Below, piece after piece: positions 38,007 through 52,065 of a stretch of DNA of 64,000 nucleotides; within the stretch, counting starts at the first letter, position 1; each line of letters begins with the position of its first letter. The stretch is from Pseudomonadota bacterium (lineage in GTDB: Bacteria; Pseudomonadota; Gammaproteobacteria; Acidiferrobacterales; Acidiferrobacteraceae): the NCBI GenBank assembly GCA_021795715.1, contig JAJYPD010000007.1, positions 8,956 to 72,955 of the forward strand, given 5' to 3'. The notes beneath the pieces are model-generated. The model had not been told where the DNA came from. It saw only the letters and a program-made list of their open reading frames with translations, and did not search any database. The translations under genes were made by a program, and so were the position numbers.

Positions 38007-38309
38007 ATGCTGCATACCGTCAACAAATCACCGCTACAAAGCCGGACGCTCGAGCAATGTCTTGCCCATGTCCGGCCGGGCGGGGCCGTATTACTGATTG
38101 AAGACGCCGTTTACGCGGCGACGGCACGCACGGCGGCCGGAGCGCAAATCGAGAAGAGCGTCGCGCAGTTTCCCGTGTACGTACTGGAACCCGACCTGAA
38201 GGCGCGCGGTATAGCCAGCAAGGACGTGGTCAAGGGCGTGACGGCAGTCGATTACGCCGGTTTCGTGAAGCTCGTGACAGAGCACGACGCCGTGCAAGCG
38301 TGGCTCTAG
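38007..38309 (+). CDS. dsrH: Sulfurtransferase DsrH
   Basis: MLHTVNKSP... 100 aa, the TusB/DsrH family position. Confidence 0.9.
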   Translation: MLHTVNKSPLQSRTLEQCLAHVRPGGAVLLIEDAVYAATARTAAGAQIEKSVAQFPVYVLEPDLKARGIASKDVVKGVTAVDYAGFVKLVTEHDAVQAWL

Positions 38310-38343
38310 GGTCGCAGACATTCAGGGTGAACAGGAGAGTACC

Positions 38344-38676: not shown

Positions 38677-38705
38677 CAGCGGATCCCGGAGGCGGAGGCG
38701 GAATC

Positions 38706-39473
38706 ATGGCGACATGGACCATAGCGTATGCAGTGTTGTTGTACCTCGCGGCGATCGTTCTGGTCGGAGGGCTTTGCTACCGCATAGCACTCTACGCCAT
38801 GACAAAGGCCCCGCTCCGGATTCCCACCATGCCTGCGCCCCGGACACGTTCCGGCGTCGCCGTGCGCATGGCGGGCGAAGTGGGGCTCTTTACCAGCCTC
38901 TTTCGCGGCGACAAATGGGCTTGGATCTGGAGCTATCTCTTTCACGTCAGCCTTCTCCTCGTGCTGCTTCAGCACCTGCGCTATGTGTTCGTGAGCGTCC
39001 CCACGTGGGTGGTGTGGGAGTCGCCGTTTGGCAGTTACGCGGGGGCGGTGCTCGTCGTCTCCCTCATCGGACTGTTTGGGCGGCGGCTGATTAATGCGCG
39101 CGTGCGGTTCCTGTCTGGACCGTCGGACTATCTGATGCTGGTCTTGCTGTTTGCCATCGGTGTGACGGGCGCGATGATGCGCTTTGTCAGCCGCGTGAAC
39201 ATCGTCGGCTTCAAGGCGTTCATTCTTGGTCTCATGTACATGCATCTCCATCCGCTTCCGGATGACACGCTCATTCTGGTGCATGTCGGTCTCGTGGCCC
39301 TGCTCATGCTGGTGCTGCCCTTTAGCAAACTGCTGCATGCGCCAGGCGTCCTTTTCAGTCCGACCCGTAATCAGGTGGACAATGCGCGCCACGAGGCGCA
39401 GACACCGCGTGATCAGACCGCGCGCGGTGCCCGCGTTGGAGCAGAGCCCGTCGGTCAGGATGGTGCCCTATGA
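38706..39473 (+). CDS. dsrM: DsrM, NarI-like dihaem b membrane subunit
   Basis: 5 predicted TM helices with conserved His. Start at MATWTIAY; the track ORF begins 13 codons earlier, inside dsrC. Confidence 0.9.
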   Translation: MATWTIAYAVLLYLAAIVLVGGLCYRIALYAMTKAPLRIPTMPAPRTRSGVAVRMAGEVGLFTSLFRGDKWAWIWSYLFHVSLLLVLLQHLRYVFVSVPTWVVWESPFGSYAGAVLVVSLIGLFGRRLINARVRFLSGPSDYLMLVLLFAIGVTGAMMRFVSRVNIVGFKAFILGLMYMHLHPLPDDTLILVHVGLVALLMLVLPFSKLLHAPGVLFSPTRNQVDNARHEAQTPRDQTARGARVGAEPVGQDGAL

Positions 39474-40960
39474 GCGATATCACCGTACCAGCGCTTGGCG
39501 AATATGTGGAGACCCCCGAGCCGCGCGCCGGAGTGACAAAAGACATCCATACCTTCAAGGCAGGTCCCGAGCACCAGCGCGCGCTGGGATTCCCGGAAAG
39601 CCTGGTGGATGGCTGGCAGGAGAAGGCCATCCGCCGCCTGGGTGAACTGCTCGATACGCAGCGTGGACTGCGTGTCTACATGGATTCGTGCGTCAAGTGC
39701 GGCGCGTGCACGGACAAGTGCCATTATTTTCTGGGTACGGGCGAGGCCAACAATATGCCGGCGGCGCGCGCGGATCTGCTGCGCAAAGTGTACCGGCGGT
39801 ACTTCACGTGGCCCGGAAAATGGTTTCCCAAGCTTGTGGGTGCCACCGATCTGACGCCGGAAGTCCTCGATTCCTGGTACACGTACTTCCATCAATGCTC
39901 GCAGTGCCGGCGCTGCTCGGTGTTTTGTCCCTACGGGATTGACACCGCCGAGGTGTCCATGGCGGCGCGCGAGATCATGGACAGCATTGGCGTAGGCACA
40001 AAGTACACCAACGAGATTCTCGGCAAGGTTCACAAGGTCGGCAACAATCTCGGTCTTCCGGAGCCGGCACTGCGCAATACCCTCGAAGGTCTGGAGGAGG
40101 ACGTCAAGGACAGCACGGGCGTTGACGTGCGCTTCCCGGTGGACGTCGAGGGCGCCGAGGTGCTTCTCATCACGCCATCGGCCGACTTTTTTGCCGAACC
40201 GCACATCGACGGATTGATCGGTTATGCCAAGGTGTTCCACCAGGCGGGCATCAGCTGGACACTCAGCACGCACGCCTCGGAGGCGGCCAACTTCGCGATG
40301 TTCATCGGCAGCCATGAACAGATGCGCAAGGTGGCGATACGTATACGCGAAGCGGCGATTGCGCTCAAGGTCAAGCGGATTGTCGTGGGGGAATGCGGTC
40401 ACGCGTGGCGGGTCGCCTATTCCTTCTGGAACACCCTCATTGGGCCTTTTGACTTTCTGGATCCGCGCTACCCGCAGCCGCAGCATATCTGCGAGGTGAC
40501 GGAGGATCTCATCGGCCGGGGCGCCCTGAAGCTCGATCCGAGCGCGAACGACGAACGCGTCGTCACCTTCCACGATTCGTGCAACGTGGCACGCGCCACG
40601 CGCATGGGCGGCCGTCCGGGCGGCCAGTTCGAGGTTCCACGTTCCGTCATCCGGTCTGTCTGCAAGAATTTCGTGGAGATGAGCCCTGAGACAACGGGAG
40701 ACAGGACGTTTTGTTGCGGAGGCGGCGGCGGACTTTTGACCGACGACCTTCTGGAACTGCGCGTCAAAGGCGCGCTGCCGCGGATGCAGGCGCTGGATGC
40801 GGTCGTGAAGGAAAAGAAGGTCACGCATATGGCCGCGATCTGTGCCATATGCAAGAGCCAGTTTACGAAGGTACTGCCTTATTACGGCTTGGACCGCGAG
40901 ATGATCATCAGTGTGCATCAACTTGTGGGTGACGCCATCGTATTGGGCGCAAAAGAATAG
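39470..40960 (+). CDS. dsrK: DsrK, HdrD-like FeS catalytic subunit
   Basis: CVKCGACTDKC and CSQCRRCSVFCP ferredoxin motifs. CCG domain FCCGGGGG. Confidence 0.95.
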   Translation: MSDITVPALGEYVETPEPRAGVTKDIHTFKAGPEHQRALGFPESLVDGWQEKAIRRLGELLDTQRGLRVYMDSCVKCGACTDKCHYFLGTGEANNMPAARADLLRKVYRRYFTWPGKWFPKLVGATDLTPEVLDSWYTYFHQCSQCRRCSVFCPYGIDTAEVSMAAREIMDSIGVGTKYTNEILGKVHKVGNNLGLPEPALRNTLEGLEEDVKDSTGVDVRFPVDVEGAEVLLITPSADFFAEPHIDGLIGYAKVFHQAGISWTLSTHASEAANFAMFIGSHEQMRKVAIRIREAAIALKVKRIVVGECGHAWRVAYSFWNTLIGPFDFLDPRYPQPQHICEVTEDLIGRGALKLDPSANDERVVTFHDSCNVARATRMGGRPGGQFEVPRSVIRSVCKNFVEMSPETTGDRTFCCGGGGGLLTDDLLELRVKGALPRMQALDAVVKEKKVTHMAAICAICKSQFTKVLPYYGLDREMIISVHQLVGDAIVLGAKE

Positions 40961-40981
40961 CGGGCACAGAAGGGGATCAGA

Positions 40982-42892
40982 ATGACAGTAGGAAAACAGC
41001 AAGGGGAGACGACGGGTCGCACGTTCCGGCGGTACCAGGACGGCGAGGCGGAATTCGATTCGTTCCAGGAGCAGATCTTCAAGGCTGGCTGGTCGCACAA
41101 GTGCCCGGTGTACGTACAGCGCACGCCGGCCTGCCAGGGTCAGTGTCCGGCTGGCGAGGACATCCGGGGATGGCTTGACGTGGTACGCGGTCTCGACAAG
41201 CCGCCGACAGGCGTCACATGGCAGGAACATGCCTTCCGGCGTCTGACGCGCGCCAATCCGTTCCCGGGCGTCATGGGCTACGTGTGCCCGGCGCCATGCG
41301 AAGAAGGCTGCAATCGCCGCGCCGTGGAGGACTTCGTCGGCATCAATGCGGTCGAGCAGTTCGTGGGCGAAGCGGCCATCAAGGGTCAATACGGTTTCAA
41401 GAAACCCGAGAAGGAAACCGGCAAGCGGGTCGCGATCATCGGCGGGGGTGTGGCGGGGCTTGCGGCGGCCTACCAGTTGCGGTTGCGCGGCCACGGCTGC
41501 ACGATTTTCGAGTCGCGCGCAGAGCTGGGCGGCATGTTGCGCTACGGACTGCCCAATTACCGGACGCCGCCTGCGGTCGTCCAGGGGGAAATCCAGCGCA
41601 TTCTCGATATGGGTGTTGAAGTGCACACCAATACCCGGATCGGTGTGGATATCAAGATCGATGATCTGGACCGCGATTTCGATGCGGTCTTCTGGGCCAT
41701 CGGCACCCAAAACGGGCGCATACCGAATATTCCCGGCGCCAATGCGCCCAACTGTGTGGGCGGTATCGAATTTTTGCGCCAGTTCAACGACGGCAAGCTG
41801 CCTTCGGTTCCGGGGCGCATCGTGGTCATCGGCGGCGGCGACACCTCCATCGACGTGACGACGGTGGCGCGCAAGCTGGGCGGCTTTAGCGGCATCGATG
41901 GGGAAGGAAAGCCGTTGACCTACACGGCGGACATGGTCACATCGGCGGCGGCGCACAGCGGTCAGAAGGTCACTCTGACCTCGACGCTGCCGCTCGACCG
42001 GATGCGTGCATCGGCGCGTGAAGTGGCGGATGCGCGGTCGCTCGAAGTCGAGATCCTGGGCGGCCTCATGCCGCTGTCTGTGACCTGCAACGCAAAAGGG
42101 GTTGCGGTGGGCGTGCGTTTCGCGCCGTGCCATCACGGCGCCGACGGCCACCGTGTGCGCATCGAAGGTGACGAGATCGAGATTCCGGCGGACCTGGTCG
42201 TGTTCGCGATCGGCCAGTACGCCGATATGACGGGCCTTGAGAGTCTGGATAACGGACGCCAGGCGATCTCGGCGGGTCCGGCCTTGGAGGTTATCGGCCG
42301 TCCGCGCCATTTTGTCGGCGGGGACGTCATTGCCCCCCATCTTCTGGCGACGGCGATCGGTCATGCCGCGGCGGCGGCCGAGAGTATCGACGCGCTGCTG
42401 CGCGGCGAAACCCCCGCACGGCGGCCGCGGATCGACAAGCGCCATTACGACATCCGTGAAGGGCTGGTCGAGAATGCCAAACCCGTCAATGGCGTCGTGA
42501 CGAGCCGGACTTTTGTGCACAACTTTGAAAACCGCTCGACGCAGGAGGTCATCAAGGCGGACAGTCTGTTCCTGGGCCACTTCGAAACGACTCCACGGAT
42601 CCATCGGGAGGAGAGACGGCTGGCCGATCTGTTTGCCCGCGGCGGGGAACGCATCATGCCGCTGACCGAGGAACAGGCGGTCAAAGAGGCCAAGCGCTGC
42701 ATGAGCTGCGGTCTCTGTCTGGAGTGCGACAATTGCATGGTGTTTTGCCCGCAGGCGGCCGTCAGTAAGGTCCCGCGCGACCAGCATGCAATTGGCTACT
42801 ACGTGACGACCGACTATAAGCGCTGCATCGGATGCCACATCTGCCAGGACGTCTGTCCTGCGGGGTACATCCAGATGGGCTTGGGCGAATGA
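40982..42892 (+). CDS. dsrL: DsrL, NAD(P)H:acceptor oxidoreductase (GltD-like flavoprotein with C-terminal ferredoxin domain)
   Basis: N-terminal FeS Cys motifs, dinucleotide folds IIGGGVAGLAAAY and VVIGGGDTSIDV. C-terminal CMSCGLCLECDNC and CIGCHICQDVCP. Confidence 0.9.
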   Translation: MTVGKQQGETTGRTFRRYQDGEAEFDSFQEQIFKAGWSHKCPVYVQRTPACQGQCPAGEDIRGWLDVVRGLDKPPTGVTWQEHAFRRLTRANPFPGVMGYVCPAPCEEGCNRRAVEDFVGINAVEQFVGEAAIKGQYGFKKPEKETGKRVAIIGGGVAGLAAAYQLRLRGHGCTIFESRAELGGMLRYGLPNYRTPPAVVQGEIQRILDMGVEVHTNTRIGVDIKIDDLDRDFDAVFWAIGTQNGRIPNIPGANAPNCVGGIEFLRQFNDGKLPSVPGRIVVIGGGDTSIDVTTVARKLGGFSGIDGEGKPLTYTADMVTSAAAHSGQKVTLTSTLPLDRMRASAREVADARSLEVEILGGLMPLSVTCNAKGVAVGVRFAPCHHGADGHRVRIEGDEIEIPADLVVFAIGQYADMTGLESLDNGRQAISAGPALEVIGRPRHFVGGDVIAPHLLATAIGHAAAAAESIDALLRGETPARRPRIDKRHYDIREGLVENAKPVNGVVTSRTFVHNFENRSTQEVIKADSLFLGHFETTPRIHREERRLADLFARGGERIMPLTEEQAVKEAKRCMSCGLCLECDNCMVFCPQAAVSKVPRDQHAIGYYVTTDYKRCIGCHICQDVCPAGYIQMGLGE

Positions 42893-42893
42893 G

Positions 42894-43373
42894 ATGAAGA
42901 CCCGGGCGCTCGTCATCGCGGGATTGTCGGTTCTGATCTTCTTTGGTGCGATCTGGGCGGACCATCGCGGCACCGTACCGGTGCCGCTCGTTCCGACCGC
43001 ACAGGGTCACTGTGTCCTGCCGACGGCGCTCATGCGCCGCGAGCACATGATGCTGCTGCGCCAGGTGCGCGAGCAGATTGTGCGGGACGACAAGAATGAT
43101 CGCACCGACCGTCTGACCAACTGCATTGCCTGCCATGTGCAGACCAATAGCGCGGGGGCACCGATCCCAATCAATCAGCGCGGACAGTTTTGTGCCGCCT
43201 GCCACACGTATGTCGGGGTGCATCTCGACTGCTTCGCCTGCCACGCGACAGTGCCGCAAAAGGCGGTTTCGATCGCAAATCTCATGGGCACCAAGGGAGA
43301 ACAGGCGGCGTATTCGATTCCGCGGGTGATCCTTCAGAATGCGCCCGCATCGCTTTCAAGGGGGCATTCATGA
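42894..43373 (+). CDS. dsrJ: DsrJ, periplasmic trihaem cytochrome c
   Basis: Signal anchor plus three CxxCH sites (CIACH, CAACH, CFACH). Confidence 0.9.
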   Translation: MKTRALVIAGLSVLIFFGAIWADHRGTVPVPLVPTAQGHCVLPTALMRREHMMLLRQVREQIVRDDKNDRTDRLTNCIACHVQTNSAGAPIPINQRGQFCAACHTYVGVHLDCFACHATVPQKAVSIANLMGTKGEQAAYSIPRVILQNAPASLSRGHS

Positions 43374-44134
43374 CCGGTGATCGGACAGATCTCGTGAGTG
43401 ACGCCGCGCCCGAAGAGGGACACGACCCCTCACGGCGCCGGCTGTTTGCGCTGGCAGGTGGCGCGGTCGCGGCGGTGCTGACGCCGGGTGTGACGCTGTT
43501 TGCGCGCACGCTGACGGTCGGATCGGGCAAAACGCCGGTGCGCTACGGTCTGCTTATCGACAGCACCCGGTGCACGCAGGGCTGTGATGCCTGCGTCACG
43601 GCCTGCCAGGATTACAACGGTCTGTCAAAGAAGATCACGCCCGATACGGCGCAGTGGATCCGCAAGGTAACGGTCACGGATCCGCAGACGGGCCTGACCC
43701 GCAGCTTTCCTGTCATGTGCCAGCATTGTGCGCAGGCGACGTGCGTAGATGTGTGCCCAACCGGCGCATCGTATCGACGGCCGGATGGGATCGTGCTTGT
43801 CGACAAGCACCGCTGTATCGGCTGCCGTTACTGTCTCATGGCCTGCCCGTACAAGGCGCGTTCGTTCGTCGGACGGGTGGTGAAAGATCAAAAGCCATGG
43901 GCGCCACGCGGAAAAGGCACTGCAGAAGCATGTACGATGTGCGTCGAACGGGTCATGGACGGAAAGGCGCCGGCCTGCGTGACCGCCTGCGCCGAGAGGG
44001 GCAAGAAGGCGATGGTGTTTGGCAATCTGCATGATCCGAAAAGCGAGATTGCGCAAAAACTTGCGCAGTTTCCGACAACCACCATACGCGCCGATCTGGG
44101 CCTTGAGCCCGGCGTGCATTACCGCGGCATTTAG
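43370..44134 (+). CDS. dsrO: DsrO, periplasmic FeS ferredoxin-like subunit
   Basis: Tat motif SRRRLFALAGG. Cys clusters CTQGCDACVTAC, CQHCAQATCVDVCP, CIGCRYCLMACP and CTMCVERV. ATGA overlap with dsrJ; the track ORF from 43190 is an upstream extension. Confidence 0.9.
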   Translation: MTGDRTDLVSDAAPEEGHDPSRRRLFALAGGAVAAVLTPGVTLFARTLTVGSGKTPVRYGLLIDSTRCTQGCDACVTACQDYNGLSKKITPDTAQWIRKVTVTDPQTGLTRSFPVMCQHCAQATCVDVCPTGASYRRPDGIVLVDKHRCIGCRYCLMACPYKARSFVGRVVKDQKPWAPRGKGTAEACTMCVERVMDGKAPACVTACAERGKKAMVFGNLHDPKSEIAQKLAQFPTTTIRADLGLEPGVHYRGI

Positions 44135-44154
44135 ACGTCTTTCTGGGAGACCCT

Positions 44155-45396
44155 ATGGCAACCATGCACTACAGAGAGATCCCGGGCCGAAGCTTCCTCT
44201 ACTGGGCGGGACTGGCGGTGTGCGCCCTGCTGACCGTGGCCGGCGTGGGGGCCGGGCTTTATATGCGGGCCGAGGGGCACCATGTCACCGGGATGAATCA
44301 GCAGATCGTGTGGGGCATCGAGCATGTGTTCGCTGTCTTCCTGATCGTCGCGGCCTCGGGGGCCCTGAATGTGGCCTCCATCGCCTCGGTTTTCGGACGC
44401 ACGATCTACAAACCCCTGTCGCGGCTGTCGGGATTGCTGGCCATCGCGCTGCTAATCGGCGGCCTGTGGGATCTGGTCTTGGATCTTGGGCGTCCAGGAC
44501 ATGTGCTGGACGCCATCATCTACGGCAACTTCCGGTCGATCTTTGCATGGAACATGTACCTGTACGCCGGCTTTTTGCTGATTACGGGTTTTTACCTTTG
44601 GTTCATGATGGAGCGGCGCCTCAACCGATACAGCCACGCGATGGGCGTCACTGCATTTCTGTGGCGGTTGACGCTGACCACCGGCACGGGTTCGATCTTT
44701 GGTTTCCTGGTGTCGCGCAGCGCCTACGATACGGCGCTTCTGGCACCGATGTTCATCATCATGTCGTTTGCCTACGGGCTGGCGACGTTCCTGCTTATCC
44801 TGATCGGCGGTTTTCGCGCCCTGGCCCGGCCGGTCGGGGAGCGCATTCGGGGCCGCCTGAAGATTCTGTTGACCGTGTTCGTGGCAGCGGTGCTGTATTT
44901 TGCGGTTGTCTATAACCTGACCAATCTCTACATGCCCGGCCAGCGCGCGTTCGAGGGATTCGTGCTGCTTCATGGTGGTGTTTACACGATGCTTTTCTGG
45001 GTCGGGCAGATCCTGATCGGCGGCGTGTTCCCGCTCGTATTGCTGCTTGGCAAGAAAGGGGCGAGCGCCAGAACTTTGGTCATGGCAAGCGTGGCCGTGC
45101 TGATTGGCGGTCTCGCACAAGTCTACATCATCATCGTAGGGGCTCAGGCCTATCCGCAGCAGCTGTTTCCGGGAATGATCGTGCACAGTTCCTTCTACGA
45201 CGGGGTTGTCAACCCGTACATCCCGGGATGGCCCGAGACGACGCTCGCTGTGAGCGGTGTGGGATTAGTCGGGCTGATCGTCTTGCTGGCGGTGCGGGTG
45301 CTGCCCTTCCTGCCGCTCAGTCTCGCCGATGAGGTCACGGACGTGCACGGACATGATCAGACGGTGACCGCTGCCGGTGCTGCCGCAACGCCATGA
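44155..45396 (+). CDS. dsrP: DsrP, NrfD/PsrC-like integral membrane subunit
   Basis: About 10 TM helices, polysulfide-reductase NrfD-like. Position after dsrO. Confidence 0.9.
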   Translation: MATMHYREIPGRSFLYWAGLAVCALLTVAGVGAGLYMRAEGHHVTGMNQQIVWGIEHVFAVFLIVAASGALNVASIASVFGRTIYKPLSRLSGLLAIALLIGGLWDLVLDLGRPGHVLDAIIYGNFRSIFAWNMYLYAGFLLITGFYLWFMMERRLNRYSHAMGVTAFLWRLTLTTGTGSIFGFLVSRSAYDTALLAPMFIIMSFAYGLATFLLILIGGFRALARPVGERIRGRLKILLTVFVAAVLYFAVVYNLTNLYMPGQRAFEGFVLLHGGVYTMLFWVGQILIGGVFPLVLLLGKKGASARTLVMASVAVLIGGLAQVYIIIVGAQAYPQQLFPGMIVHSSFYDGVVNPYIPGWPETTLAVSGVGLVGLIVLLAVRVLPFLPLSLADEVTDVHGHDQTVTAAGAAATP

Positions 45397-46844
45397 TGCG
45401 CCGCGTCTACATATCGGCCGCTCATAAGTCGTCTGGAAAGACGACTGTCTCGATCGGTCTGTGTGCGGCGCTAAAGGAGCGCGGCCTGCGGGTGCAGCCC
45501 TTCAAGAAGGGGCCCGACTTCATCGATCCGCTCTGGCTTACCCAGGCGGCCGGGCGTGCCTGTCACAATCTCGACTTCCACACCATGAGCATCGCCGAGA
45601 TCCGCGATTGCTTCGCCATGGCCTCGCAGGATGCTGATATCGCCGTCATCGAAGGCAACAAGGGGCTGTTCGACGGCGTGGCACTCGACGGCAGCAACAG
45701 CAACGCCGCGCTTGCGCGGCATTTAGCGGCCCCGGTGGTGCTCGTCATCAACGCCCAGGGCATCAATCGGGGTATCGCGCCGCTTGTCATCGGCTATCGG
45801 CATTTCGATCCGGATCTGCCCGTGGCCGGTATCATCTTGAACCGTGTCGGAGGCGCGCGCCACGAGGCCAAACTGCGGGCCGTCCTGAAGGCTTTTACCG
45901 ATGTGCCGGTTCTCGGCGCCCTCTGGGATTCGGCGTCCGTGTCGATTACGGAACGTCATCTGGGCTTGATTCCAAGCGGCGAGCACGACGAAGCGGCATC
46001 TGCGGTGGAACGACTTTCGCGGGTCATCCAGGATCATGTCGATGTGGATGCCATTGCCCACATCGAGCCCGGTGAACGGCCTGTTTCGGTGACAGCGCGC
46101 CCGCGCAGGCGCGCGGTGGACTTGCGGATCGGTGTCCCGCGCGACGCCGCATTCAGCTTCTATTATCCGGGTGACCTGGAGGCGCTGGCGGCAGGCGGCG
46201 CCGAACTCGTATTTTTCGATACACTAAAGGACAAGCGCCTGCCCGAGGTCGACGGCCTCTTCATCGGTGGCGGCTTTCCTGAGACACAGGCGGGGGCGCT
46301 TGCCGCAAACAGCGGCATGCGCCGCGCCATCCGCGCGGCTATAGAGGAGGGTCTGCCCGTCTACGCCGAGTGCGGCGGCCTCATGTATCTCTGCCGGACT
46401 CTTTCGTGGCGCGGGGCGACCTACCCGATGGTCGGCGCGCTGGCTGCGGATGCGCAGATGGAAGAAAAGCCCATCGGTCATGGCTATGTGAATTTGCAGC
46501 CAACCGCCGCGCATCCGTGGTGGCCGGGGGGACCGGTGACGGGACGTGCGGTCGTGCCGGCCCATGAATTTCACTATTCGCATCTTGTCGATGTGGCTGC
46601 GGACACGGTGTACGCCTACAAGGTCACACGGGGGCACGGGATAGACGGCCAGAACGATGGCATCGTCTACAAGAACGTCCTGGCCGGCTATGCCCATCTG
46701 CGCGATGTACAGGCGTCGCCTTGGACGGGCCGTTTTCTGGATTTCGTGCGCAACCGCCGTCCAGCGGCAGGGATCTTGGCGGACGCATCCTGTTGTTGCT
46801 GCGCGCCCTCGATGGCCGGAGCGCCTTGTGACGCGCGCTCATGA
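45393..46844 (+). CDS. dsrN: DsrN, CobB/CbiA-like amidotransferase (siroheme amidase)
   Basis: P-loop AAHKSSGKTTVSIGL and GATase-like YAECGGLMYL with active Cys. ATGA overlap with dsrP. Unusual C-terminal tail containing CCCC. Confidence 0.85.
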   Translation: MMRRVYISAAHKSSGKTTVSIGLCAALKERGLRVQPFKKGPDFIDPLWLTQAAGRACHNLDFHTMSIAEIRDCFAMASQDADIAVIEGNKGLFDGVALDGSNSNAALARHLAAPVVLVINAQGINRGIAPLVIGYRHFDPDLPVAGIILNRVGGARHEAKLRAVLKAFTDVPVLGALWDSASVSITERHLGLIPSGEHDEAASAVERLSRVIQDHVDVDAIAHIEPGERPVSVTARPRRRAVDLRIGVPRDAAFSFYYPGDLEALAAGGAELVFFDTLKDKRLPEVDGLFIGGGFPETQAGALAANSGMRRAIRAAIEEGLPVYAECGGLMYLCRTLSWRGATYPMVGALAADAQMEEKPIGHGYVNLQPTAAHPWWPGGPVTGRAVVPAHEFHYSHLVDVAADTVYAYKVTRGHGIDGQNDGIVYKNVLAGYAHLRDVQASPWTGRFLDFVRNRRPAAGILADASCCCCAPSMAGAPCDARS

Positions 46845-48258
46845 CGTCGCGGTCATTGGTTGCGGGGCCGGCGGATACAAGGCGGCGATAACCGCCGCAC
46901 AGCATGGCGCCCGTGTGGTGGTCATCGAGCGCGAGCAGGTCGGCGGTGCCTGCCTGAACCGGGCGTGTGTGCCAAAGAAGGCGCTTGCGCACATCGCCAG
47001 TCTGATTCTCCAAACCCAAACGCTTACCGGTCACGGCCTGACAGGCCGGGTGAGCGGCGATCTGGCTGCCGCCATCGCCTTCAAAAATCAGGTTGTCGAC
47101 GAATTGCGGCGCGGGCTGCCTCTGCGATTGAAGCCGCTGGCCGTGGAGACCATCATCGGCGAAGCGCGCATGGCCGGTCCCAATCACATCCTCGTCGAAA
47201 CGGCGGAGGGGAAGCGGCGCATCGAGGCGCGATCCATCATCATCGCGACCGGCGCCGCGCCACGCGCGCTCGCCGGTTGCGCCGTGGATCACGACCGCAT
47301 CGTCAACGCCGACAGCTTCATTCCGACCCTGGCCGCACCGCTTGGTGACGTTCTGTGTGTTGGCGGGGGCGCGCTGGGTGTCGAGGCGGCCTTCTTCCTG
47401 CATCAGTTCGGAGGCCGTGTCACGATCGTTGAGGAAAAGGGGCGCCTTCTTGACCTGCCGGCGATTCCCGAGCGGGCTTCGAATCTGCTTGAACGCAGCC
47501 TGACAAGCCTTGGCGTCACCGTCTGCACGCAACAGACGGTTCGTTCGGCCCGGGCCACACATGAGGGCGTTTGTGTCGAATTCGCCGATGGGCGTGTGTC
47601 CAGCTTTGCGCGCGTTCTGGTCGCGGTAGGGCGCCAACCGCGTCCCGATGATCTGGGGCTCGATGATCTTGGCATTGAACGGGATGCCAACGGATTCATC
47701 GTCACGAACGAGTTCCTGCAAACGAATATTCCGGGTCTTTTCGCCGTAGGTGACGTCAAGGGCGGACCCATGACCGCGGCGGCGGCTCTTCACGATGGCC
47801 GCGTGGCCGGAGAAAATGCCACACAGGGTGCCGTGCGCCAGAGAAATTATCATCAGGTGCCGCTTGTCGTGGATTCCGTTCTGCCCATCGCCGCCATGGG
47901 CCTGTCGGAGGAACTGGCGGAATCCGCTGGATTCACTCCAGACACGGTCTACATCCCTTTGCGCGCATCAGTCAAGGCGCGCGCCTACAATGACGCCACC
48001 GGGTTCATCGAGATCGTCCATGACCAGGAAACTGGCCAGATGCTGGGTGGCTGTATTGTGGGTGCAGGCGCCGATGAATTGATCCACATCATCGCGCTGG
48101 CCTGCCGCTCGAAACGAGGCCTTTGGTCCCTCACGGATCTTGATTATGGCCACCCGTCATGGAGCGAGGATGTCGGGACCGCGCTGGAACCCTATATCCG
48201 GACGTTGACACAGACGGCCGACACCGTGTTTAGGCCCGGCATTTATGCGGCAGATTAA
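46828..48258 (+). CDS. Class-I pyridine nucleotide-disulfide oxidoreductase (dihydrolipoamide dehydrogenase-like)
   Basis: VAVIGCGAGGYKAA FAD fold, redox disulfide GGACLNRACVPKK (CxxxxC), second Rossmann VGGGALGVEAAFFLHQFGGRVTIVEE (acidic end, NADH-like), and C-terminal His-Glu dyad YGHPSWSE. GTG at 46828 is preceded by GGAG and overlaps dsrN by 17 nt. Confidence 0.8.
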   Translation: MTRAHDVAVIGCGAGGYKAAITAAQHGARVVVIEREQVGGACLNRACVPKKALAHIASLILQTQTLTGHGLTGRVSGDLAAAIAFKNQVVDELRRGLPLRLKPLAVETIIGEARMAGPNHILVETAEGKRRIEARSIIIATGAAPRALAGCAVDHDRIVNADSFIPTLAAPLGDVLCVGGGALGVEAAFFLHQFGGRVTIVEEKGRLLDLPAIPERASNLLERSLTSLGVTVCTQQTVRSARATHEGVCVEFADGRVSSFARVLVAVGRQPRPDDLGLDDLGIERDANGFIVTNEFLQTNIPGLFAVGDVKGGPMTAAAALHDGRVAGENATQGAVRQRNYHQVPLVVDSVLPIAAMGLSEELAESAGFTPDTVYIPLRASVKARAYNDATGFIEIVHDQETGQMLGGCIVGAGADELIHIIALACRSKRGLWSLTDLDYGHPSWSEDVGTALEPYIRTLTQTADTVFRPGIYAAD

Positions 48259-48291
48259 AGGGCAGGAGAGGGCGCTCATCCCGCAGGCGAT

Positions 48292-48311
48292 GTTCGTATA
48301 TAGTATCGAAC
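48292..48311 (+). promoter_or_regulatory. AT-cored palindrome GTTCG-TATATAGTAT-CGAAC between the disulfide reductase and sensor kinase genes
   Basis: 5-bp arms flank a -10-like TATATAGTAT core in an otherwise GC-rich 88-nt gap. Confidence 0.3.
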
Positions 48312-48346
48312 AGAGTGTTTCTGCGGCCAGCCGGCCCGAGGCCCCT

Positions 48347-49975
48347 ATGGAAAGACAGTACGTTGGGAAAACGCCGTTGTGGCAGCAATGGTGGAATGAC
48401 TGGCGGTCCCGGCCGGCGGATGGCTGGCGGCGCAAATATCGCCCGTGGCTGGTGGGGGCGGCACCGGTCGGTCTCATGGTGCTTCTCCTCGCGGCCGTCA
48501 TCGCCGAAGGGGCCGACGATGGGCACGGACCCCATGCGATGCTGTTTCATGGGCTGGCGCTGGCCGTCTTGCTGCTGGCCCTGATCGGTACCGCCGGCAT
48601 CTGGGTCGTTACATTCCGTTCATTGCTGACGCCGCTTTATCACCTGCGCACATGGGCGGCGCGGGTACGCGCGGGCAATTTGTCCGTGCGCATCCCGGCC
48701 TCCGTCGCCGATGGGGAATTCGCCAAGCTCGCCGCCGACGTAAACAGTGTAAGCGAGATTTTGAGCAACCTGTCCGCCGAGCGCTCCTCGCTGCCCTACC
48801 GGCCAATGACCGCGCGCTGGCTCGAGATCCTAAATGACATCACCGCGGGCATTGCCAGTTCCCAGGATCTGGATGAACTGCTCCCGCGCTTTCTGTATAC
48901 GCTCTGGAACGCCAACGAAATCCGGGCCGGCATGGTGCGCCTGGCAACCGATGACGGCCACCTCCGTCTCATGGCCAGCATCGGTCTGCCCGACGAGATT
49001 GTCGCAAAAGAACGGCGTATTCCGCTTGATTGCTGCCTGTGCGGGCACGCGGTCGGTCAGACGGCGCTGAGCATCGGATCCGATATTCATACCTGTTGCG
49101 AATCCTGGGGCCAATCGCCTTTTTCGGGCGAGGATCTGGTGCTGCTCGCCGTGCCTCTGCGCTGCGAGGGCCGGACGGTCGGTATCTACAATCTGTTCAT
49201 GCCCCGGACCCGCATCGTCGGCCACAATGATGTCTCGGATCTGCTCCTTGGCCTTGGCCGCCATCTGGGCGCAGCCATCGAAAAGATGCGCCTGCAGGAT
49301 GAACGGCGTCAGCTGTCTTTGCTGCAGGAACGCATGACCATCGCGCACGAGCTGCACGACTCGCTCGCGCAGACGCTCGCTGGGCTGCGCATCCAGGCGC
49401 AGGTTCTCCGCGAGACCCTGGCCCAGGATGAGCATCCGGGCGTACGCAGTGAATTTGACCGGCTGAGCGCGGGTCTCGAAGTGGCCCACAGGGAAGTGCG
49501 CGACCTGATCCGCAACTGGCGGGCCGTGGGGGCCGAAGGCGGTTTGATGCCGGCGCTCGATGCCACGATCACCCGTTTTCAGGCGGAAACCGGGATTCCG
49601 GTGTTCGTGCAGAAGGATTGGCACGGCGTTTTGCCGGCCAGTTACCAGACACACGTGTTACGCGTGATCCAGGAGGCTCTAAGCAATGTGCGCAAGCATG
49701 CCCATGCACAGACGGTGCGGGTTTTGCTGGCGAGCGAAGCGGACGGTTTGTATCGGGTTCTGATAGAGGATGATGGGGAGGGCGCCGTGCCAGGCGAGGA
49801 AAGGGACGACCAGGAAGAACACTTTGGACAGGCCATCATGCGCGAACGCGCGCGCGCCATGGGCGGCGAATTGCGCGTTGAACGGGAAATAGGCGAAGGG
49901 ACGCAAGTCCTTCTCACCTTCCGGAACCCGGCGGTTTCGCTGTCCCGGGCGAATTATCCGGTGGCGGCTTCATGA
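48347..49975 (+). CDS. NarX/NarQ-type sensor histidine kinase (2 TM - HAMP - GAF - HisKA_3 - HATPase_c)
   Basis: Two TM helices with about a 13-aa outer loop, HAMP (LRTWAARVRAGNLSVRIP), GAF region with CCLCGH...HTCCESW, H-box IAHELHDSLAQTL, and HATPase IQEALSNVRKHA...DDGEG. Start at 48347 (GAGG upstream); 48290 is an alternative. Confidence 0.8.
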   Translation: MERQYVGKTPLWQQWWNDWRSRPADGWRRKYRPWLVGAAPVGLMVLLLAAVIAEGADDGHGPHAMLFHGLALAVLLLALIGTAGIWVVTFRSLLTPLYHLRTWAARVRAGNLSVRIPASVADGEFAKLAADVNSVSEILSNLSAERSSLPYRPMTARWLEILNDITAGIASSQDLDELLPRFLYTLWNANEIRAGMVRLATDDGHLRLMASIGLPDEIVAKERRIPLDCCLCGHAVGQTALSIGSDIHTCCESWGQSPFSGEDLVLLAVPLRCEGRTVGIYNLFMPRTRIVGHNDVSDLLLGLGRHLGAAIEKMRLQDERRQLSLLQERMTIAHELHDSLAQTLAGLRIQAQVLRETLAQDEHPGVRSEFDRLSAGLEVAHREVRDLIRNWRAVGAEGGLMPALDATITRFQAETGIPVFVQKDWHGVLPASYQTHVLRVIQEALSNVRKHAHAQTVRVLLASEADGLYRVLIEDDGEGAVPGEERDDQEEHFGQAIMRERARAMGGELRVEREIGEGTQVLLTFRNPAVSLSRANYPVAAS

Positions 49976-50616
49976 GGGTCATGCTGATCGATGATCACGC
50001 GCTTTTTCGCAGTGGACTTGAGCATTTGCTTGTCCGGCGCGGGATCGATGTGGTGGCTACGACCAGCGACGGGGAGCAGGCGCTGGCCCTGATCCAGGAG
50101 ACGCGCCCCCATGTGGTGCTCCTGGATATCCGCATGCCGAAACTCGGCGGCATCGAGACCTTGCGGCGACTGCGTGCCGGAGGCGTCACCGTGCCGATCG
50201 TGATGTTGACAACGAGCAGCGACGAGGCCGATCTCGTGTCTTCCCTCCATCATGGCGCACAAGGCTATCTGCTAAAGGACATGGAGCCAGACGGCCTGGT
50301 CGCCGCGCTGGCGCAGATCGAGACCGGGGAGATGATCGTTGCCCCGGAATTTGCGCCCGTACTGGCCCGCTTCATCCAGAGCGGGCCGGAGGCCATGAAA
50401 GCTTCCCACGCCTTTAGCGATCTCACACCGCGGGAGCTGGAGATCCTCGGGCATCTGGGGGACGGGCAGAGCAACAAGGTCATCGCCCGTTCGCTTGGCA
50501 TCTCCGAGGGAACGGTCAAGCTCCACGTCAAGGCCATTCTGCGCAAACTCAAGCTGAGCTCGCGCGTACAGGCCGCGGTGCGTTCGGTCGAGGAAGGATT
50601 TGGCCGGAAGAACTGA
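49972..50616 (+). CDS. NarL/FixJ-family response regulator (REC + LuxR-type HTH)
   Basis: MLIDDH...VVLLDIRMP receiver. LTPRELEILGHLGDGQSNKVIARSLGISEGTVKLHVKAILRKL HTH. ATGA overlap with the kinase gene. Confidence 0.9.
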   Translation: MRVMLIDDHALFRSGLEHLLVRRGIDVVATTSDGEQALALIQETRPHVVLLDIRMPKLGGIETLRRLRAGGVTVPIVMLTTSSDEADLVSSLHHGAQGYLLKDMEPDGLVAALAQIETGEMIVAPEFAPVLARFIQSGPEAMKASHAFSDLTPRELEILGHLGDGQSNKVIARSLGISEGTVKLHVKAILRKLKLSSRVQAAVRSVEEGFGRKN

Positions 50617-50652: not shown

Positions 50653-52065
50653 TTAGCCGGCGGCCCGTAATGCCGAGGCGGAAGCGTGCGTCCGGCCGGC
50701 CCAGCGGTCATGCAGCCGCACGACTTCGCCGATAATGACGAGGGTGGGCGGCGTAATGGATTGGCGGCTCACGACGTCGGGCAAGTCGCTCAACGTGCTC
50801 GTCAGCACCCGCTGCTGCGGGGTCGTACCGCGTTCGACCAATGCGGCGGGGGTTGTGGGCGGCAGGCCATGCCGGATGAGTTCGCGGCTGATCGTTGCAA
50901 CCGCCGCCACGCCCATGTAGAACACCAGCGTTTGATGGGGTTGCGCCAGGGCGGCCCAGTTCACGGACGATCCGTCGTTCTGGCAGTGGCCGGCGACGAA
51001 TACGCAGGACTGCGCATACTCCCGGTGGGTCAATGGCAGGTCACCGTACGCGGCGCAGCCCAGTGCGGCTGTGATGCCAGGGACAACCTGGAACGGAATG
51101 CCGGCTTCCACCAGGGTGTCGATTTCCTCGCCCCCCCGACCGAAAACAAAGGGATCGCCACCCTTGAGGCGTACGACCCGCTTGCCGGCGGCCGCCAGGT
51201 CGACCAGCAACTGGTTGATGTTTTCCTGCGGAACCGCATGACGGCCAGCGCTCTTGCCTACGTCGATGCGCTCTGCGTCCTTGCGGCACAGTGCGAGGAT
51301 CGGGGGGGCGACCAGGCGGTCATAAACGATCACATCGGCTTCCTGCATGAGGCGCAAGGCGCGCAGCGTCAGAAGATCGGGATCACCGGGCCCGGCGCCG
51401 ACAAGCGACACGAGTCCCAAGGTATCGTCGGCGCGCGGAGAGGCGAGCTCCTGGGCGAAAAGGCCCTCGGCCTCCTCGGTACGGCCGCCGAGCAGAAGTT
51501 CGGCAACGGGGCCCTGCAGGATGCGCTCCCAGAACCGCCGCCGCGCATCGGGTCGGGGAATATGCTGGCGCACCTGGGTCCGCCGCCGTGCCATGAAATG
51601 GGCCAGCTGCCCGTAGGCCGAGCCGATCATCGTTTCGAGGCGCACCCGCAGAAGGCGCGCCAAAACAGGCGAGGCGCCGCCGCTCGAAACGGCGACAAGC
51701 ACCGGGGAGCGGTCGATGATCGACGGCATGATGAAAGTGCACAGCGCAGGGTGGTCCACCACGTTGACCGGAATGTGGGCCGCGGTCGCGGCCTCCGAGA
51801 CGTGCTTGTTGACCCGGCCATTGCTCGTCGCCGCGATCACGATCCGCGCGCCTGCCACATCCAGGGGATCGAATGATCGTGCCACATGCGCGATTCCGCC
51901 CGCTTCCTTCAGTGCAGAAAGCCCCGCGCATAGCTCAGGCGCGATGACCGTCACCTGCGCGCCCGCTTCTCTCAGAATGCGGATCTTGCGCAAGGCCACT
52001 TCACCGCCCCCAACGACCACGGCGTGGGCCCCATGCATGTTGAGAAAGATGGGTAAATGGTTCAT
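50653..52065 (-). CDS. cysG: Siroheme synthase CysG (precorrin-2 dehydrogenase/ferrochelatase + SUMT)
   Basis: N-terminal NAD fold VVVGGGEVALRK. C-terminal methyltransferase LVGAGPGDPDLLTLRAL, RLKGGDPFVFGRGGEE. Confidence 0.9.
   Translation of the reverse strand: MNHLPIFLNMHGAHAVVVGGGEVALRKIRILREAGAQVTVIAPELCAGLSALKEAGGIAHVARSFDPLDVAGARIVIAATSNGRVNKHVSEAATAAHIPVNVVDHPALCTFIMPSIIDRSPVLVAVSSGGASPVLARLLRVRLETMIGSAYGQLAHFMARRRTQVRQHIPRPDARRRFWERILQGPVAELLLGGRTEEAEGLFAQELASPRADDTLGLVSLVGAGPGDPDLLTLRALRLMQEADVIVYDRLVAPPILALCRKDAERIDVGKSAGRHAVPQENINQLLVDLAAAGKRVVRLKGGDPFVFGRGGEEIDTLVEAGIPFQVVPGITAALGCAAYGDLPLTHREYAQSCVFVAGHCQNDGSSVNWAALAQPHQTLVFYMGVAAVATISRELIRHGLPPTTPAALVERGTTPQQRVLTSTLSDLPDVVSRQSITPPTLVIIGEVVRLHDRWAGRTHASASALRAAG

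What the first reader, a model, noticed from the sequence alone, without database searches (positions are those of the whole stretch)
46828..48258. Flavoprotein disulfide reductase appended to the 3' end of the dsr operon in place of dsrR/dsrS
Directly after dsrN, overlapping it by 17 nt (GGAG-N6-GTG start), lies a 476-aa class-I pyridine nucleotide-disulfide oxidoreductase. It has an intact redox disulfide (GGACLNRACVPKK), an NADH-type second Rossmann fold (VTIVEE) and the C-terminal His-Glu dyad (HPSWSE). The described dsr loci I know (Allochromatium dsrABEFHCMKLJOPNRS, Thiobacillus, Chlorobi variants) do not carry such an enzyme at this position. The Dsr pathway runs on protein and low-molecular-weight persulfides and on the DsrC trisulfide/disulfide. 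A co-transcribed NADH-dependent disulfide reductase could recycle a thiol carrier (a glutathione-amide-type cofactor or a lipoyl/persulfide carrier) or give a second NADH link besides DsrL. This function is inference only.
Basis: partly seen in the sequence, partly recalled or inferred. Interest (0 to 1): 0.7.

Follow-up and report, generated by a model that had tools for sequence, protein, structure and literature searches.

The report
E3-like flavoenzyme ending dsr operons
A gene for a lipoamide-dehydrogenase-like flavoenzyme is the last gene of the sulfur-oxidation (dsr) operon here and in dozens of other sulfur-oxidising bacteria; it appears to be an overlooked, probably NAD-linked part of that pathway, and its substrate is unknown.

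Summary
A 476-aa ORF (46828..48258, GTG start, GGAG-N6) overlaps dsrN by 17 nt. It encodes an intact class-I flavoprotein disulfide reductase with the CLNRAC redox disulfide, an NAD-type VTIVEE motif and the HPSWSE His-Glu dyad.

It is not a one-off. In 72 of 74 species-level genomes with enough upstream DNA, orthologues lie directly after dsrMKLJOPN(-dsrR) on the same strand. Hosts include Acidiferrobacterales, Chromatiales, Ectothiorhodospiraceae, Sulfuricella, Sulfuriferula and Sulfurimicrobium.

It is not a housekeeping E3:
- The family is a discrete clade with 43-100% identity inside and at most 39% to anything else.
- Bit scores drop from 551 to 267 outside the family.
- It is monophyletic in 99 of 100 bootstraps.
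- It scores below NCBI's lipoamide-DH cutoff and is 30% identical to E. coli Lpd.
- It has its own signature: C409, C426, W433, W445 and a C-terminal FRPGIYA tail.

It evolves in step with the Dsr proteins and under purifying selection. In most genomes it follows dsrR rather than replacing it.

No paper in the searchable library mentions it; dsr clusters are described as ending at dsrR or dsrS.

Function is inferred only. It is most likely an NAD(H)-coupled dithiol/disulfide oxidoreductase serving the cytoplasmic Dsr sulfur relay. This is a new variant of a known enzyme kind and an undescribed conserved dsr accessory gene.

The parts
34884..46844 (+). Oxidative dsr operon dsrABEFHCMKLJOPN: dsrA 34884-36158, dsrB 36155-37222, dsrE 37237-37596, dsrF 37606-37995, dsrH 38007-38309, dsrC 38344-38676, dsrM 38667-39473, dsrK 39470-40960, dsrL 40982-42892, dsrJ 42894-43373, dsrO ~43370-44134, dsrP 44155-45396, dsrN 45393-46844
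   Evidence: NCBIfam hits. DsrC has CysB and CysA. Housekeeping genes (tatD, holB, tmk) lie upstream of dsrA.
46818..46830 (+). Shine-Dalgarno GGAG, 6-nt spacer and GTG start, all inside the 3' end of dsrN (17-nt overlap, 46828-46844)
   Evidence: Read from the sequence. The same 17-nt overlap was called by the source annotation in Acidiferrobacter sp. contigs L002 and L003.
46828..48258 (+). The E3-like flavoprotein disulfide oxidoreductase, called 'LPDL' in this report (476 aa; identical to NCBI MDA8389728.1)
46858..46875 (+). FAD-binding GxGxxG (G11-G16, GCGAGG)
   Evidence: invariant in the family
46951..46968 (+). Redox-active disulfide C42-L-N-R-A-C47
   Evidence: Cys in 84 of 85 family members (1 gap) and in all 46 outgroup proteins
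47362..47436 (+). NAD(H)-binding Rossmann motif GGGALGVE...VTIVEE, with acidic E202 at the end of beta-2
   Evidence: E or D at position 202 in 75 of 85 family members; T-R-G in an Acidiferrobacter subclade
48151..48168 (+). His-Glu dyad in the family-specific context H442-P-S-W445-S446-E447 (family consensus HPSWCE)
   Evidence: H and E in 85 of 85, W445 in 77 of 85, Cys at 446 in 57 of 85
48229..48258 (+). Family-specific C-terminal extension F-R-P-G-I-Y-A-A-D, absent from E3, GR and RclA
   Evidence: present in 21-22 of 23 family sequences and gapped in 43-44 of 46 nearest non-family proteins
48245..49975 (+). NarX/NarQ-type histidine kinase: 2 TM helices, HAMP, Cys-bearing GAF, HisKA_3. 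The ORF starts at 48245 (14-nt overlap with the flavoprotein gene). The true start is probably ATG 48348, judged from homologue length.
49972..50616 (+). NarL-type response regulator, overlapping the kinase gene by 4 nt
50653..52065 (-). cysG siroheme synthase, convergent here. In Betaproteobacteria it lies directly downstream of the flavoprotein gene on the same strand.

Best explanation
The gene encodes a functional, cytoplasmic, homodimeric FAD enzyme of the lipoamide-dehydrogenase (E3) type. It moves two electrons between NAD(H) and a dithiol/disulfide through FAD, the C42/C47 disulfide and the H442'-E447' acid-base pair of the partner subunit. It is the last gene of the oxidative dsr operon, translated in coupling with dsrN here and with dsrR in most relatives. 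It belongs to a discrete orthologous family that travels with dsr clusters of chemolithotrophic Beta- and Gammaproteobacteria.

My committed reading is that it is a dedicated accessory enzyme of rDsr sulfur oxidation. It connects the NAD+/NADH pool with a protein-bound cysteine pair, or a per- or trisulfide, of the cytoplasmic sulfur relay. The two-cysteine C-terminal arm of DsrC is the most likely partner. The enzyme would either keep that arm reduced or draw electrons from it onto NAD+.

Shown: the gene, its catalytic residues, the conserved synteny, a separate clade, co-evolution with Dsr proteins and purifying selection. Inferred: co-transcription, direction of catalysis and the identity of the substrate.
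For: Catalytic equipment is complete and conserved in all 85 family members: C42, C47, E186, H442, E447.

The fold is E3-like: AF2 gives pLDDT 82, and Foldseek gives TM 0.85-0.90 to Thermus, human and E. coli E3.

Operon membership:
- 17-nt overlap with dsrN and an internal SD; the same overlap occurs in Acidiferrobacter.
- dsrR ends about 28 nt before the first aligned codon in 58 loci and overlaps the start in L090.
- In 16 loci cysG follows within 300 bp on the same strand, so the gene is internal to a co-directional run of genes.
- The simple scan found no terminator-like site at the dsrN junction or just after the flavoprotein gene's stop; the nearest same-strand hit lies inside the gene at 48125-48139.

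Synteny: 72 of 74 genomes, plus L001 and three metagenome contigs.

Discrete family: in 1.84 billion representatives, scores fall from 590 and 551 bits to 267 or less. NJ monophyly is 99 of 100. Identity is 43-100% within the family and at most 38.6% outside it.

Co-inheritance: pairwise distances correlate with DsrN, L, O, P and K at r = 0.75-0.89, as high as Dsr proteins among themselves.

Selection: dN/dS is 0.01-0.22.

Specialisation: family-specific residues sit around the dyad (W445; C446 in 67%; W433, C409, C426; a C-terminal FRPGIYA tail), which points to a substrate site unlike that of E3.

Precedent: an E3 is proposed to reoxidise a dithiol and make NADH in the other cytoplasmic sulfur-oxidation pathway, sHdr-LbpA, and a DLDH gene is linked to hdr clusters in archaea (PMC6067878).
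Against: - There are no expression, biochemical or genetic data.
- Current rDsr models, which I recall from memory, need no such enzyme: DsrL already links rDsrAB to NAD(P), and DsrMKJOP handles DsrC.
- By published description, Allochromatium vinosum runs the pathway with dsrA-S only.
- Three Sulfuriferula-like MAGs keep a 91%-identical copy outside any dsr context, still under purifying selection. The function is therefore not strictly tied to adjacency with dsr, and possibly not to Dsr at all.
- The extra active-site Cys446 is a Ser in the window protein.
- The monomer AF2 model is unreliable for residues 429-476, exactly the family-specific part.
- Nothing here identifies DsrC as the partner.
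Confidence: 0.5

Rival explanations
1. It is a true dihydrolipoyl dehydrogenase dedicated to a lipoylated sulfur-oxidation protein encoded elsewhere (an LbpA or GcvH-like protein). It would reoxidise dihydrolipoyl groups and make NADH, as proposed for the sHdr-LbpA pathway.
For: - The nearest relatives by sequence and fold are all E3s.
- The E3 role in sHdr-LbpA sulfur oxidation has been proposed, with no dedicated bacterial gene known (PMC6067878).
- Some dsr organisms also carry hdr-like genes (PMC3072093; PMC13469137).
- Sulfuriferula-like MAGs keep the gene without adjacent dsr.
Against: - No lipoyl-domain or LbpA gene occurs in the conserved neighbourhood of 84 loci or in the 64-kb window.
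- The gene sits with dsr, not with hdr.
- The TIGR01350 score is below the equivalog cutoff.
- Residues next to the catalytic His differ from the E3 consensus (HPSW[C/S]E versus HPTLSE), and there is an extra C-terminal tail.
Confidence: 0.2
2. It is a reductase for a low-molecular-weight thiol disulfide or persulfide. It would keep a perthiol sulfur carrier reduced, giving the 'reductive activation' of stored or external sulfur and its import into the cytoplasm.
For: - The perthiolic carrier and its reductive activation are postulated, but the enzymes are unknown (PMC3368242).
- The NADH-dependent glutathione amide reductase of Chromatiaceae is a precedent within the same superfamily (PDB 2r9z hit, 157 bits).
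- An extra Cys next to the dyad in 67% of members could carry sulfane sulfur.
Against: - It is not in the GR/GAR clade: 26% identity to Gor, NCBIfam GR 213 bits against a cutoff of 480, and the GAR hit is weaker than the E3 hits.
- No thiol-biosynthesis genes are linked to it.
- Cys446 is not conserved in the window protein.
Confidence: 0.12
3. It is the redox partner of the neighbouring two-component system. It would set or reset the thiol (or Fe-S) state of the Cys-bearing GAF domain of the histidine kinase, so that dsr expression follows the NADH/NAD+ or sulfane-sulfur status.
For: - The kinase lies immediately downstream on the same strand in 26 of 60 loci and within 8 kb in 45 of 60.
- The kinase has no periplasmic domain and carries a conserved CxC/CxxC-x17-C triad in its GAF domain.
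Against: - In Betaproteobacteria the kinase and regulator are on the opposite strand, beyond cysG.
- About a quarter of the loci show no kinase nearby.
- E3-type enzymes are metabolic catalysts, and I know of no precedent as kinase reductases.
Confidence: 0.08
4. It is an ordinary housekeeping E3 (for PDH, OGDH or glycine cleavage) that merely hitch-hikes at the end of a mobile dsr cluster.
For: E3-like fold and chemistry; generic database names such as 'dihydrolipoyl dehydrogenase family protein'.
Against: - It forms a discrete clade far from E. coli Lpd (30% identity) and below the TIGR01350 cutoff.
- No E1, E2 or GcvH gene is nearby.
- It has been retained in the same position across two proteobacterial classes.
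- It has family-specific active-site residues.
Confidence: 0.05

Closest known systems
Dihydrolipoyl (lipoamide) dehydrogenase, E3 of the 2-oxoacid dehydrogenase and glycine-cleavage complexes (e.g. Thermus thermophilus 2eq6/2yqu, E. coli Lpd)
   Same: Same fold (TM 0.85-0.90). Same FAD and NAD domains, CxxxxC disulfide, His-Glu dyad and acidic NAD-specificity residue. It is the best HMM and PDB match.
   Different: 30-35% identity. Below the TIGR01350 cutoff (347 versus 408.8). A separate clade. HPSW[C/S]E instead of HPTLSE. Family-only C409, C426, W433 and a C-terminal FRPGIYA tail. Encoded in dsr operons and not next to E1, E2 or H-protein genes.
DLDH gene linked to hdr-like sulfur-oxidation clusters in Sulfolobales, and the proposed E3 step of the sHdr-LbpA pathway (Liu et al. 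2014, PMC4175335; Cao et al. 2018, PMC6067878)
   Same: An E3-type enzyme genetically tied to a cytoplasmic sulfane-sulfur-to-sulfite module in lithotrophs. The proposed role is NAD+ reduction from a dithiol, which spares reverse electron flow.
   Different: That case concerns the Hdr-like pathway, archaea and a lipoylated LbpA partner. This one concerns the rDsr pathway and bacteria, and no lipoyl protein is in the neighbourhood. Sequence relatedness between the two was not tested.
Glutathione amide reductase of purple sulfur bacteria (PDB 2r9z/2rab) and glutathione reductase
   Same: Class-I FDRs. GAR uses NADH and occurs in sulfur oxidisers (PDB hit).
   Different: Weaker match than E3 (157 versus 233 bits). 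26% identity to E. coli Gor. NCBIfam GR scores are far below their cutoffs.
DsrL, the NAD(P)H:acceptor oxidoreductase of the same operon
   Same: A flavoprotein that links Dsr sulfur oxidation to pyridine nucleotides and is encoded in the same operon.
   Different: DsrL is a GltD-like iron-sulfur flavoprotein with no redox-active disulfide. Every locus examined has both genes, so the new enzyme adds to DsrL and does not replace it.
MerA mercuric reductase
   Same: Second-best NCBIfam hit (245 bits). Class-I FDR with active-site contributions from the C-terminal part of the partner subunit.
   Different: Far below the cutoff (454). No C-terminal Cys-Cys pair and no N-terminal metal-binding domain.

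Membership tests
Class-I flavoprotein disulfide reductases (pyridine nucleotide-disulfide oxidoreductases) | FAD Rossmann GxGxxG, an NAD(P) Rossmann domain and a C-terminal dimerisation domain | tested here: met
   Pfam PF07992 (1.6e-56), PF00070 and PF02852; the AF2 model matches E3 structures at TM 0.85-0.90
Class-I flavoprotein disulfide reductases (pyridine nucleotide-disulfide oxidoreductases) | Redox-active CxxxxC in the FAD domain and a His-Glu dyad near the C-terminus | tested here: met
   C42/C47 and H442/E447 are present and conserved across 85 family members
Dihydrolipoyl dehydrogenase (E3, TIGR01350 equivalog) | Score at or above the curated equivalog cutoff | tested here: not met
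   347.4 bits against a cutoff of 408.8; all other NCBIfam E3 models are also below their cutoffs
Dihydrolipoyl dehydrogenase (E3, TIGR01350 equivalog) | Genomic or functional association with a lipoylated partner (E2, GcvH, LbpA) | tested here: not met
   No lipoyl-domain gene among the conserved neighbours in 84 loci. In the window the only Pfam Biotin_lipoyl-type domain is the biotin-carrier domain of a carboxylase about 26 kb away. Partners encoded elsewhere in the genomes could not be checked.
Dihydrolipoyl dehydrogenase (E3, TIGR01350 equivalog) | NAD+-dependent oxidation of dihydrolipoamide | not testable with these tools
   Needs an enzyme assay
Dihydrolipoyl dehydrogenase (E3, TIGR01350 equivalog) | Groups within the clade of characterised E3s | tested here: inconclusive
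   The nearest relatives are E3-like, but the family is a separate, long-stemmed clade (99/100). It is at most 38.6% identical to the 46 closest representatives and 30% to E. coli Lpd. The tree was NJ only, with few characterised references.
Glutathione / glutathione-amide reductase | Membership of the GR clade and scores above the GR model cutoffs | tested here: not met
   NF004776 213 bits against 480; TIGR01424 186 against 606; 26% identity to E. coli Gor; the GAR 2r9z hit is weaker than the E3 hits
MerA | C-terminal Cys pair, and a score above the cutoff | tested here: not met
   245 bits against 454; the C-terminus is ...FRPGIYAAD with no cysteines
dsr operon component (oxidative type) | Same strand and tight or overlapping spacing with dsr genes | tested here: met
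   17-nt overlap with dsrN; the same overlap in L002 and L003; dsrR-to-gene spacing of about 10-30 nt or an overlap
dsr operon component (oxidative type) | Conserved linkage across taxa and co-evolution with Dsr proteins | tested here: met
   72 of 74 genomes; 3 of 3 extra metagenome contigs; distance correlations of 0.75-0.89
dsr operon component (oxidative type) | Co-transcription with dsr, induction by reduced sulfur, and a sulfur-oxidation phenotype on deletion | not testable with these tools
   No transcript or genetic data were available; the literature library holds no mention of the gene

The most novel reading that the evidence does not exclude
The enzyme is a soluble, NAD+-reducing dithiol/persulfide oxidase for DsrC or another relay protein. 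For example, it could form the DsrC trisulfide or disulfide with NAD+ as acceptor. Chemolithoautotrophs would then have a second direct NADH-yielding step besides DsrL, and a partial bypass of the quinone-linked DsrMKJOP step. This would change the electron balance of the rDsr pathway.
Probability: 0.12. Interest if true: 0.85.

Novelty: new variant of a known kind. Interest (0 to 1): 0.62.

Why it matters
The rDsr pathway is the main cytoplasmic route from stored sulfur to sulfite in many environmentally dominant sulfur oxidisers. Its gene set is treated as settled (dsrABEFHCMKLJOPN, plus R and S).

A further gene is conserved at the operon's end across Acidiferrobacterales, Chromatiales-like Gammaproteobacteria and sulfur-oxidising Betaproteobacteria. 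It encodes a complete NAD(H)-disulfide oxidoreductase. This implies a pathway step or maintenance reaction that current models omit.

It gives concrete candidates for open questions:
- How sulfur is 'reductively activated' and carried.
- How DsrC's cysteines are cycled.
- How much NADH lithoautotrophs obtain without reverse electron flow.

It is also a simple genomic marker for a subtype of oxidative dsr clusters, and a soluble, easily expressed protein that can be assayed directly.

Tried and rejected
- **Longer ORF from ATG 46657 (533 aa).** Rejected, because homologues start at the GTG-equivalent position.
- **Paralogue or dsrR elsewhere in the window.** None was found by tblastn. The other 476-aa ORF (21320-22750, minus strand) is a biotin carboxylase.
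- **Recent insertion.** GC content matches the flanks.
- **Lipoyl, LbpA or thiol-biosynthesis partner in the neighbourhood.** Clustering all unassigned ORFs of 85 loci gave only DsrR, DsrC/E/F/H, a Glycos_transf_3-like gene, a rhodanese, a Peptidase_S24 gene and TetR.
- **Viral carriage as an auxiliary metabolic gene.** None in IMG/VR.
- **Literature.** Ten full-text searches and nine papers gave no mention of an E3-like gene in dsr clusters. These included dsr evolution and synteny studies, Acidiferrobacteraceae and Thioalkalivibrio genome papers, and a 2026 study of oxidative dsr operons. A guessed search for Thiobacillus denitrificans locus tags found nothing. The library holds only open-licence papers, so absence is not proof.
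- **AF2 model.** The monomer model from a 21-sequence alignment is good for residues 1-428 but poor (pLDDT below 50) for 429-476. I could not place C409, C426, W445 or the C-terminal tail relative to the active site.
- **First tree script.** It timed out and was rerun with a faster distance routine.


Full report
**What is in the sequence**

The window carries a complete oxidative-type dsr operon on the + strand. It comprises dsrA (34884-36158), dsrB, dsrE, F, H, C, M, K, L, J, O, P and dsrN (45393-46844).
- The genes are identified by NCBIfam equivalog models.
- DsrC has both C-terminal cysteines.
- Housekeeping genes (fabF, pabBC, mltG, tmk, holB, tatD) precede dsrA.

The ORF of the finding runs from GTG 46828 to TAA 48258 and encodes 476 aa.
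- GGAG lies at 46818-46821, six bases before the GTG.
- The dsrN stop (TGA 46842-46844) lies inside the new gene, giving a 17-nt overlap.
- The mechanical ORF extends up to ATG 46657. Homologues are 474-498 aa and align from residue 1-6, so the GTG is the credible start.
- GC content does not differ from the flanks.

**What kind of protein it is**

- Pfam finds the three domains of class-I pyridine nucleotide-disulfide oxidoreductases.
- The best NCBIfam model is lipoamide dehydrogenase TIGR01350 at 347 bits, below its curated cutoff of 408.8. MerA, LpdA-type quinone reductase, transhydrogenase, glutathione reductase and RclA models score 185-245 bits, far below their cutoffs.
- The best solved-structure sequences are E3s, led by Thermus 2eq6 at 233 bits. 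Glutathione amide reductase 2r9z scores 157 bits.
- An AlphaFold model (pLDDT 82, pTM 0.80) superposes on E3 structures with TM 0.85-0.90 at 30-35% identity. Residues 429-476 are modelled poorly in the monomer.

**A discrete family, not a housekeeping E3**

A search of 5.8 billion proteins returned a series of full-length homologues. One is identical (NCBI MDA8389728.1, a Gammaproteobacteria MAG). Others are 85-89% identical, Acidiferrobacter proteins are 57-68% identical, and a large set lies at 45-55% identity. All carry only generic names.

In the exhaustive HMMER scan of 1.84 billion 50%-identity representatives, the family collapses to two full-length representatives (590 and 551 bits) plus three partial sequences. 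Scores then fall abruptly to 267-214 bits for generic E3-like proteins of 30-39% identity.

A neighbour-joining tree was built from 23 family members, the 46 nearest outsiders and E. coli Lpd, Gor, SthA and RclA.
- The family is monophyletic in 99 of 100 bootstraps.
- Identity is 43-100% inside the family and at most 38.6% to outsiders.
- Identity of the window protein to E. coli Lpd, Gor, SthA and RclA is 30%, 26%, 25% and 29%.

Across 85 family sequences the catalytic C42, C47, E186, H442 and E447 are conserved. The family also has its own signature:
- C409 in 85 of 85 members.
- C426 in 78 of 85.
- W433 in 85 of 85.
- H322 in 77 of 85.
- W445 in 77 of 85.
- A Cys at 446, next to the catalytic Glu, in 57 of 85. 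The window protein has Ser here.
- A C-terminal extension F-R-P-G-I-Y-A that E3, GR, RclA and SthA lack.

The acidic residue that marks NAD(H) preference (E202) is present in 75 of 85 members, including the window protein. An Acidiferrobacter subclade has T-R-G instead, which looks NADP-like.

**Linkage with dsr**

One scan of 185,579 species-representative genomes with family-specific peptide patterns gave 121 relatives, of which the best 80 were kept. I mapped the window's Dsr proteins onto these and four earlier loci by tblastn.

- Of 74 loci with at least 2 kb of upstream DNA, 72 have dsrN directly upstream on the same strand, preceded by dsrMKLJOP.
- The hosts are Acidiferrobacter/Acidiferrobacterales, Chromatiales, Thiohalomonadales, Ectothiorhodospiraceae bacterium 2226, and the Betaproteobacteria Sulfuricella, Sulfuriferula (including two isolates), Sulfurimicrobium, Sulfurirhabdus and Hydrogenophilales MAGs.
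- Three further metagenome contigs chosen from the protein hits show the same order.
- In 58 loci a dsrR gene (IscA-like, PF01521) sits between dsrN and the flavoprotein gene. It ends about 28 nt before the first aligned codon and overlaps the start in L090.
- The Acidiferrobacter-like lineage, which includes the window, lacks dsrR at this place. The window has no dsrR anywhere in its 64 kb.

Two arrangements occur downstream.
- In Gammaproteobacteria a NarX-type kinase and NarL-type regulator follow on the same strand, with cysG convergent. The window has this arrangement.
- In Betaproteobacteria cysG follows within 300 bp on the same strand, and the kinase and regulator lie beyond it on the other strand.

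Pairwise distances of the flavoprotein correlate with those of DsrN, L, O, P and K at r = 0.75-0.89. Dsr proteins correlate among themselves at 0.78-0.88. dN/dS is 0.01-0.22. The gene is therefore a stable, selected passenger of the cluster.

The exceptions are three Sulfuriferula-like MAGs (L067, L079, L081).
- Their copies are 91% identical to the dsr-linked Sulfuriferula gene.
- In L067 and L081 the gene lies among unrelated genes. L079 has too little upstream DNA to tell.
- L067 still has a 73-aa dsrR remnant upstream.
- The copies remain under purifying selection.

**Is it known?**

Ten full-text searches and nine papers were checked. They included:
- The Allochromatium, Thioalkalivibrio sulfidophilus and Sulfurifustis/Sulfuricaulis genome papers.
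- The DsrL paper.
- Two large dsr evolution and synteny studies.
- A 2026 study of oxidative dsr operons in Acidiferrobacterales and Burkholderiales.

All describe the cluster as dsrABEFHCMKLJOPN(R)(S), and none mentions an E3-like gene.

The closest published idea concerns the other cytoplasmic pathway. Cao et al. 2018 propose that an E3 reoxidises dihydrolipoyl-LbpA in the sHdr system and thereby makes NADH. They note a DLDH gene linked to hdr clusters in archaea but none in bacterial hdr clusters (PMC6067878). The library covers open-licence papers only, so prior mention elsewhere cannot be excluded.

**How it most likely works**

*Shown:* an intact E3-type catalytic apparatus, a cytoplasmic protein whose FAD fold starts at residue 5, operon position with translational coupling, and conservation with the dsr cluster.

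*Inferred:* it exchanges electrons between NAD(H) and a dithiol/disulfide that belongs to the Dsr sulfur relay.

I consider DsrC's two-cysteine arm the most likely partner. It is the only obligate dithiol/disulfide (or trisulfide) carrier encoded in every one of these clusters. The altered residues around the His-Glu dyad and the extra C-terminal tail also argue for a substrate other than a lipoyl-lysine arm. The direction is open. The enzyme could rescue oxidised relay cysteines with NADH, or harvest electrons onto NAD+. The second option would benefit lithoautotrophs in the way proposed for sHdr-LbpA.

*Rivals:*
- A dedicated E3 for a lipoylated sulfur-oxidation protein encoded elsewhere. 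The dsr-unlinked Sulfuriferula copies and the co-occurrence of hdr-like genes in some dsr organisms favour this.
- A reductase for a low-molecular-weight perthiol carrier.
- A redox partner of the adjacent Cys-bearing GAF kinase.
- Plain housekeeping E3, which is the least likely.

None can be settled without expression data, genetics or enzymology.

**Verdict**

It defines an undescribed, widely conserved accessory gene of oxidative dsr clusters and a new subfamily of E3-like flavoprotein disulfide oxidoreductases. Function is inferred only. Interest is moderate to high for sulfur-metabolism specialists.

Noticed in passing
window 48245..49975 (probable true start 48348); homologues in 51 loci: The NarX-type histidine kinase next to the flavoprotein gene has no periplasmic sensor: two TM helices are joined by a loop of about 12 aa. 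Its cytoplasmic GAF domain carries a conserved cysteine triad. C278 is present in 98% and C296 in 96%. C276 occurs in 97% of same-strand (Gamma-type) kinases and C275 in 100% of opposite-strand (Beta-type) kinases, giving CxC/CxxC-x17-C. It is a candidate thiol-, persulfide- or Fe-S-based regulator of dsr.
   Followed up: partly
L033:9600-9959, L068:9605-9973 and 25 other loci (dsrR directly upstream of the flavoprotein gene): 27 of 61 DsrR homologues, mostly from Betaproteobacteria, end in a Gly/Ser/Cys-rich tail with 3-4 cysteines (e.g. ...GGGGGCGGCGGGCH). The others have no Cys there. A flexible poly-Cys tail encoded right before a disulfide reductase gene may be a substrate or sulfur carrier.
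   Followed up: partly
L067:9977-11452, L081:5264-6739, L079:67-1506: Sulfuriferula-like MAGs carry a copy that is 91% identical to the dsr-linked Sulfuriferula gene. In L067 and L081 it lies in a non-dsr context (UvrD helicase, cupredoxin plus FTR1 permease, aldo-keto reductase). L079 has too little upstream DNA to tell. L067 keeps a 73-aa dsrR remnant upstream. dN/dS is 0.05-0.08, so the gene is still selected.
   Followed up: partly
L068:7118-8116, L037:2648-3649 and 13 other loci: In 15 loci a 333-aa protein with Glycos_trans_3N/Glycos_transf_3 domains (the anthranilate/nucleoside phosphoribosyltransferase fold) is inserted between dsrP and dsrN.
   Followed up: no
L001:13904-14401, L015:13882-14370, L091:8963-9433 and 8 other Gamma-type loci: A single-domain rhodanese of about 160 aa follows the response regulator on the same strand. 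It is absent from the window.
   Followed up: no
Family alignment, window residues 198-206 (nt 47419-47445): The pyridine-nucleotide specificity motif differs within the family. It is V-E-[QRKE] in most members, which is NAD-like. It is [AV]-T-R-G in the Acidiferrobacter sp. subclade (L002-L004, L006, L010-L013), which looks NADP-like.
   Followed up: partly
window 18152..18802 (-): A MerB alkylmercury lyase gene (PF03243, 3.7e-36) lies about 28 kb upstream. No merA is visible in the window.
   Followed up: no
window 19394..22750 (-): A two-subunit biotin-dependent carboxylase, probably pyruvate or oxaloacetate type. One subunit has HMGL-like, PYC_OADA and biotinyl domains (611 aa) and the other is a biotin carboxylase (476 aa). 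The latter is the only other 476-aa ORF in the window and is unrelated to the finding.
   Followed up: yes
L089:7796-10785: On one metagenome contig the flavoprotein gene is followed a few genes later by a TauD-family dioxygenase, a Cas6-like protein and an extra dsrC copy.
   Followed up: no
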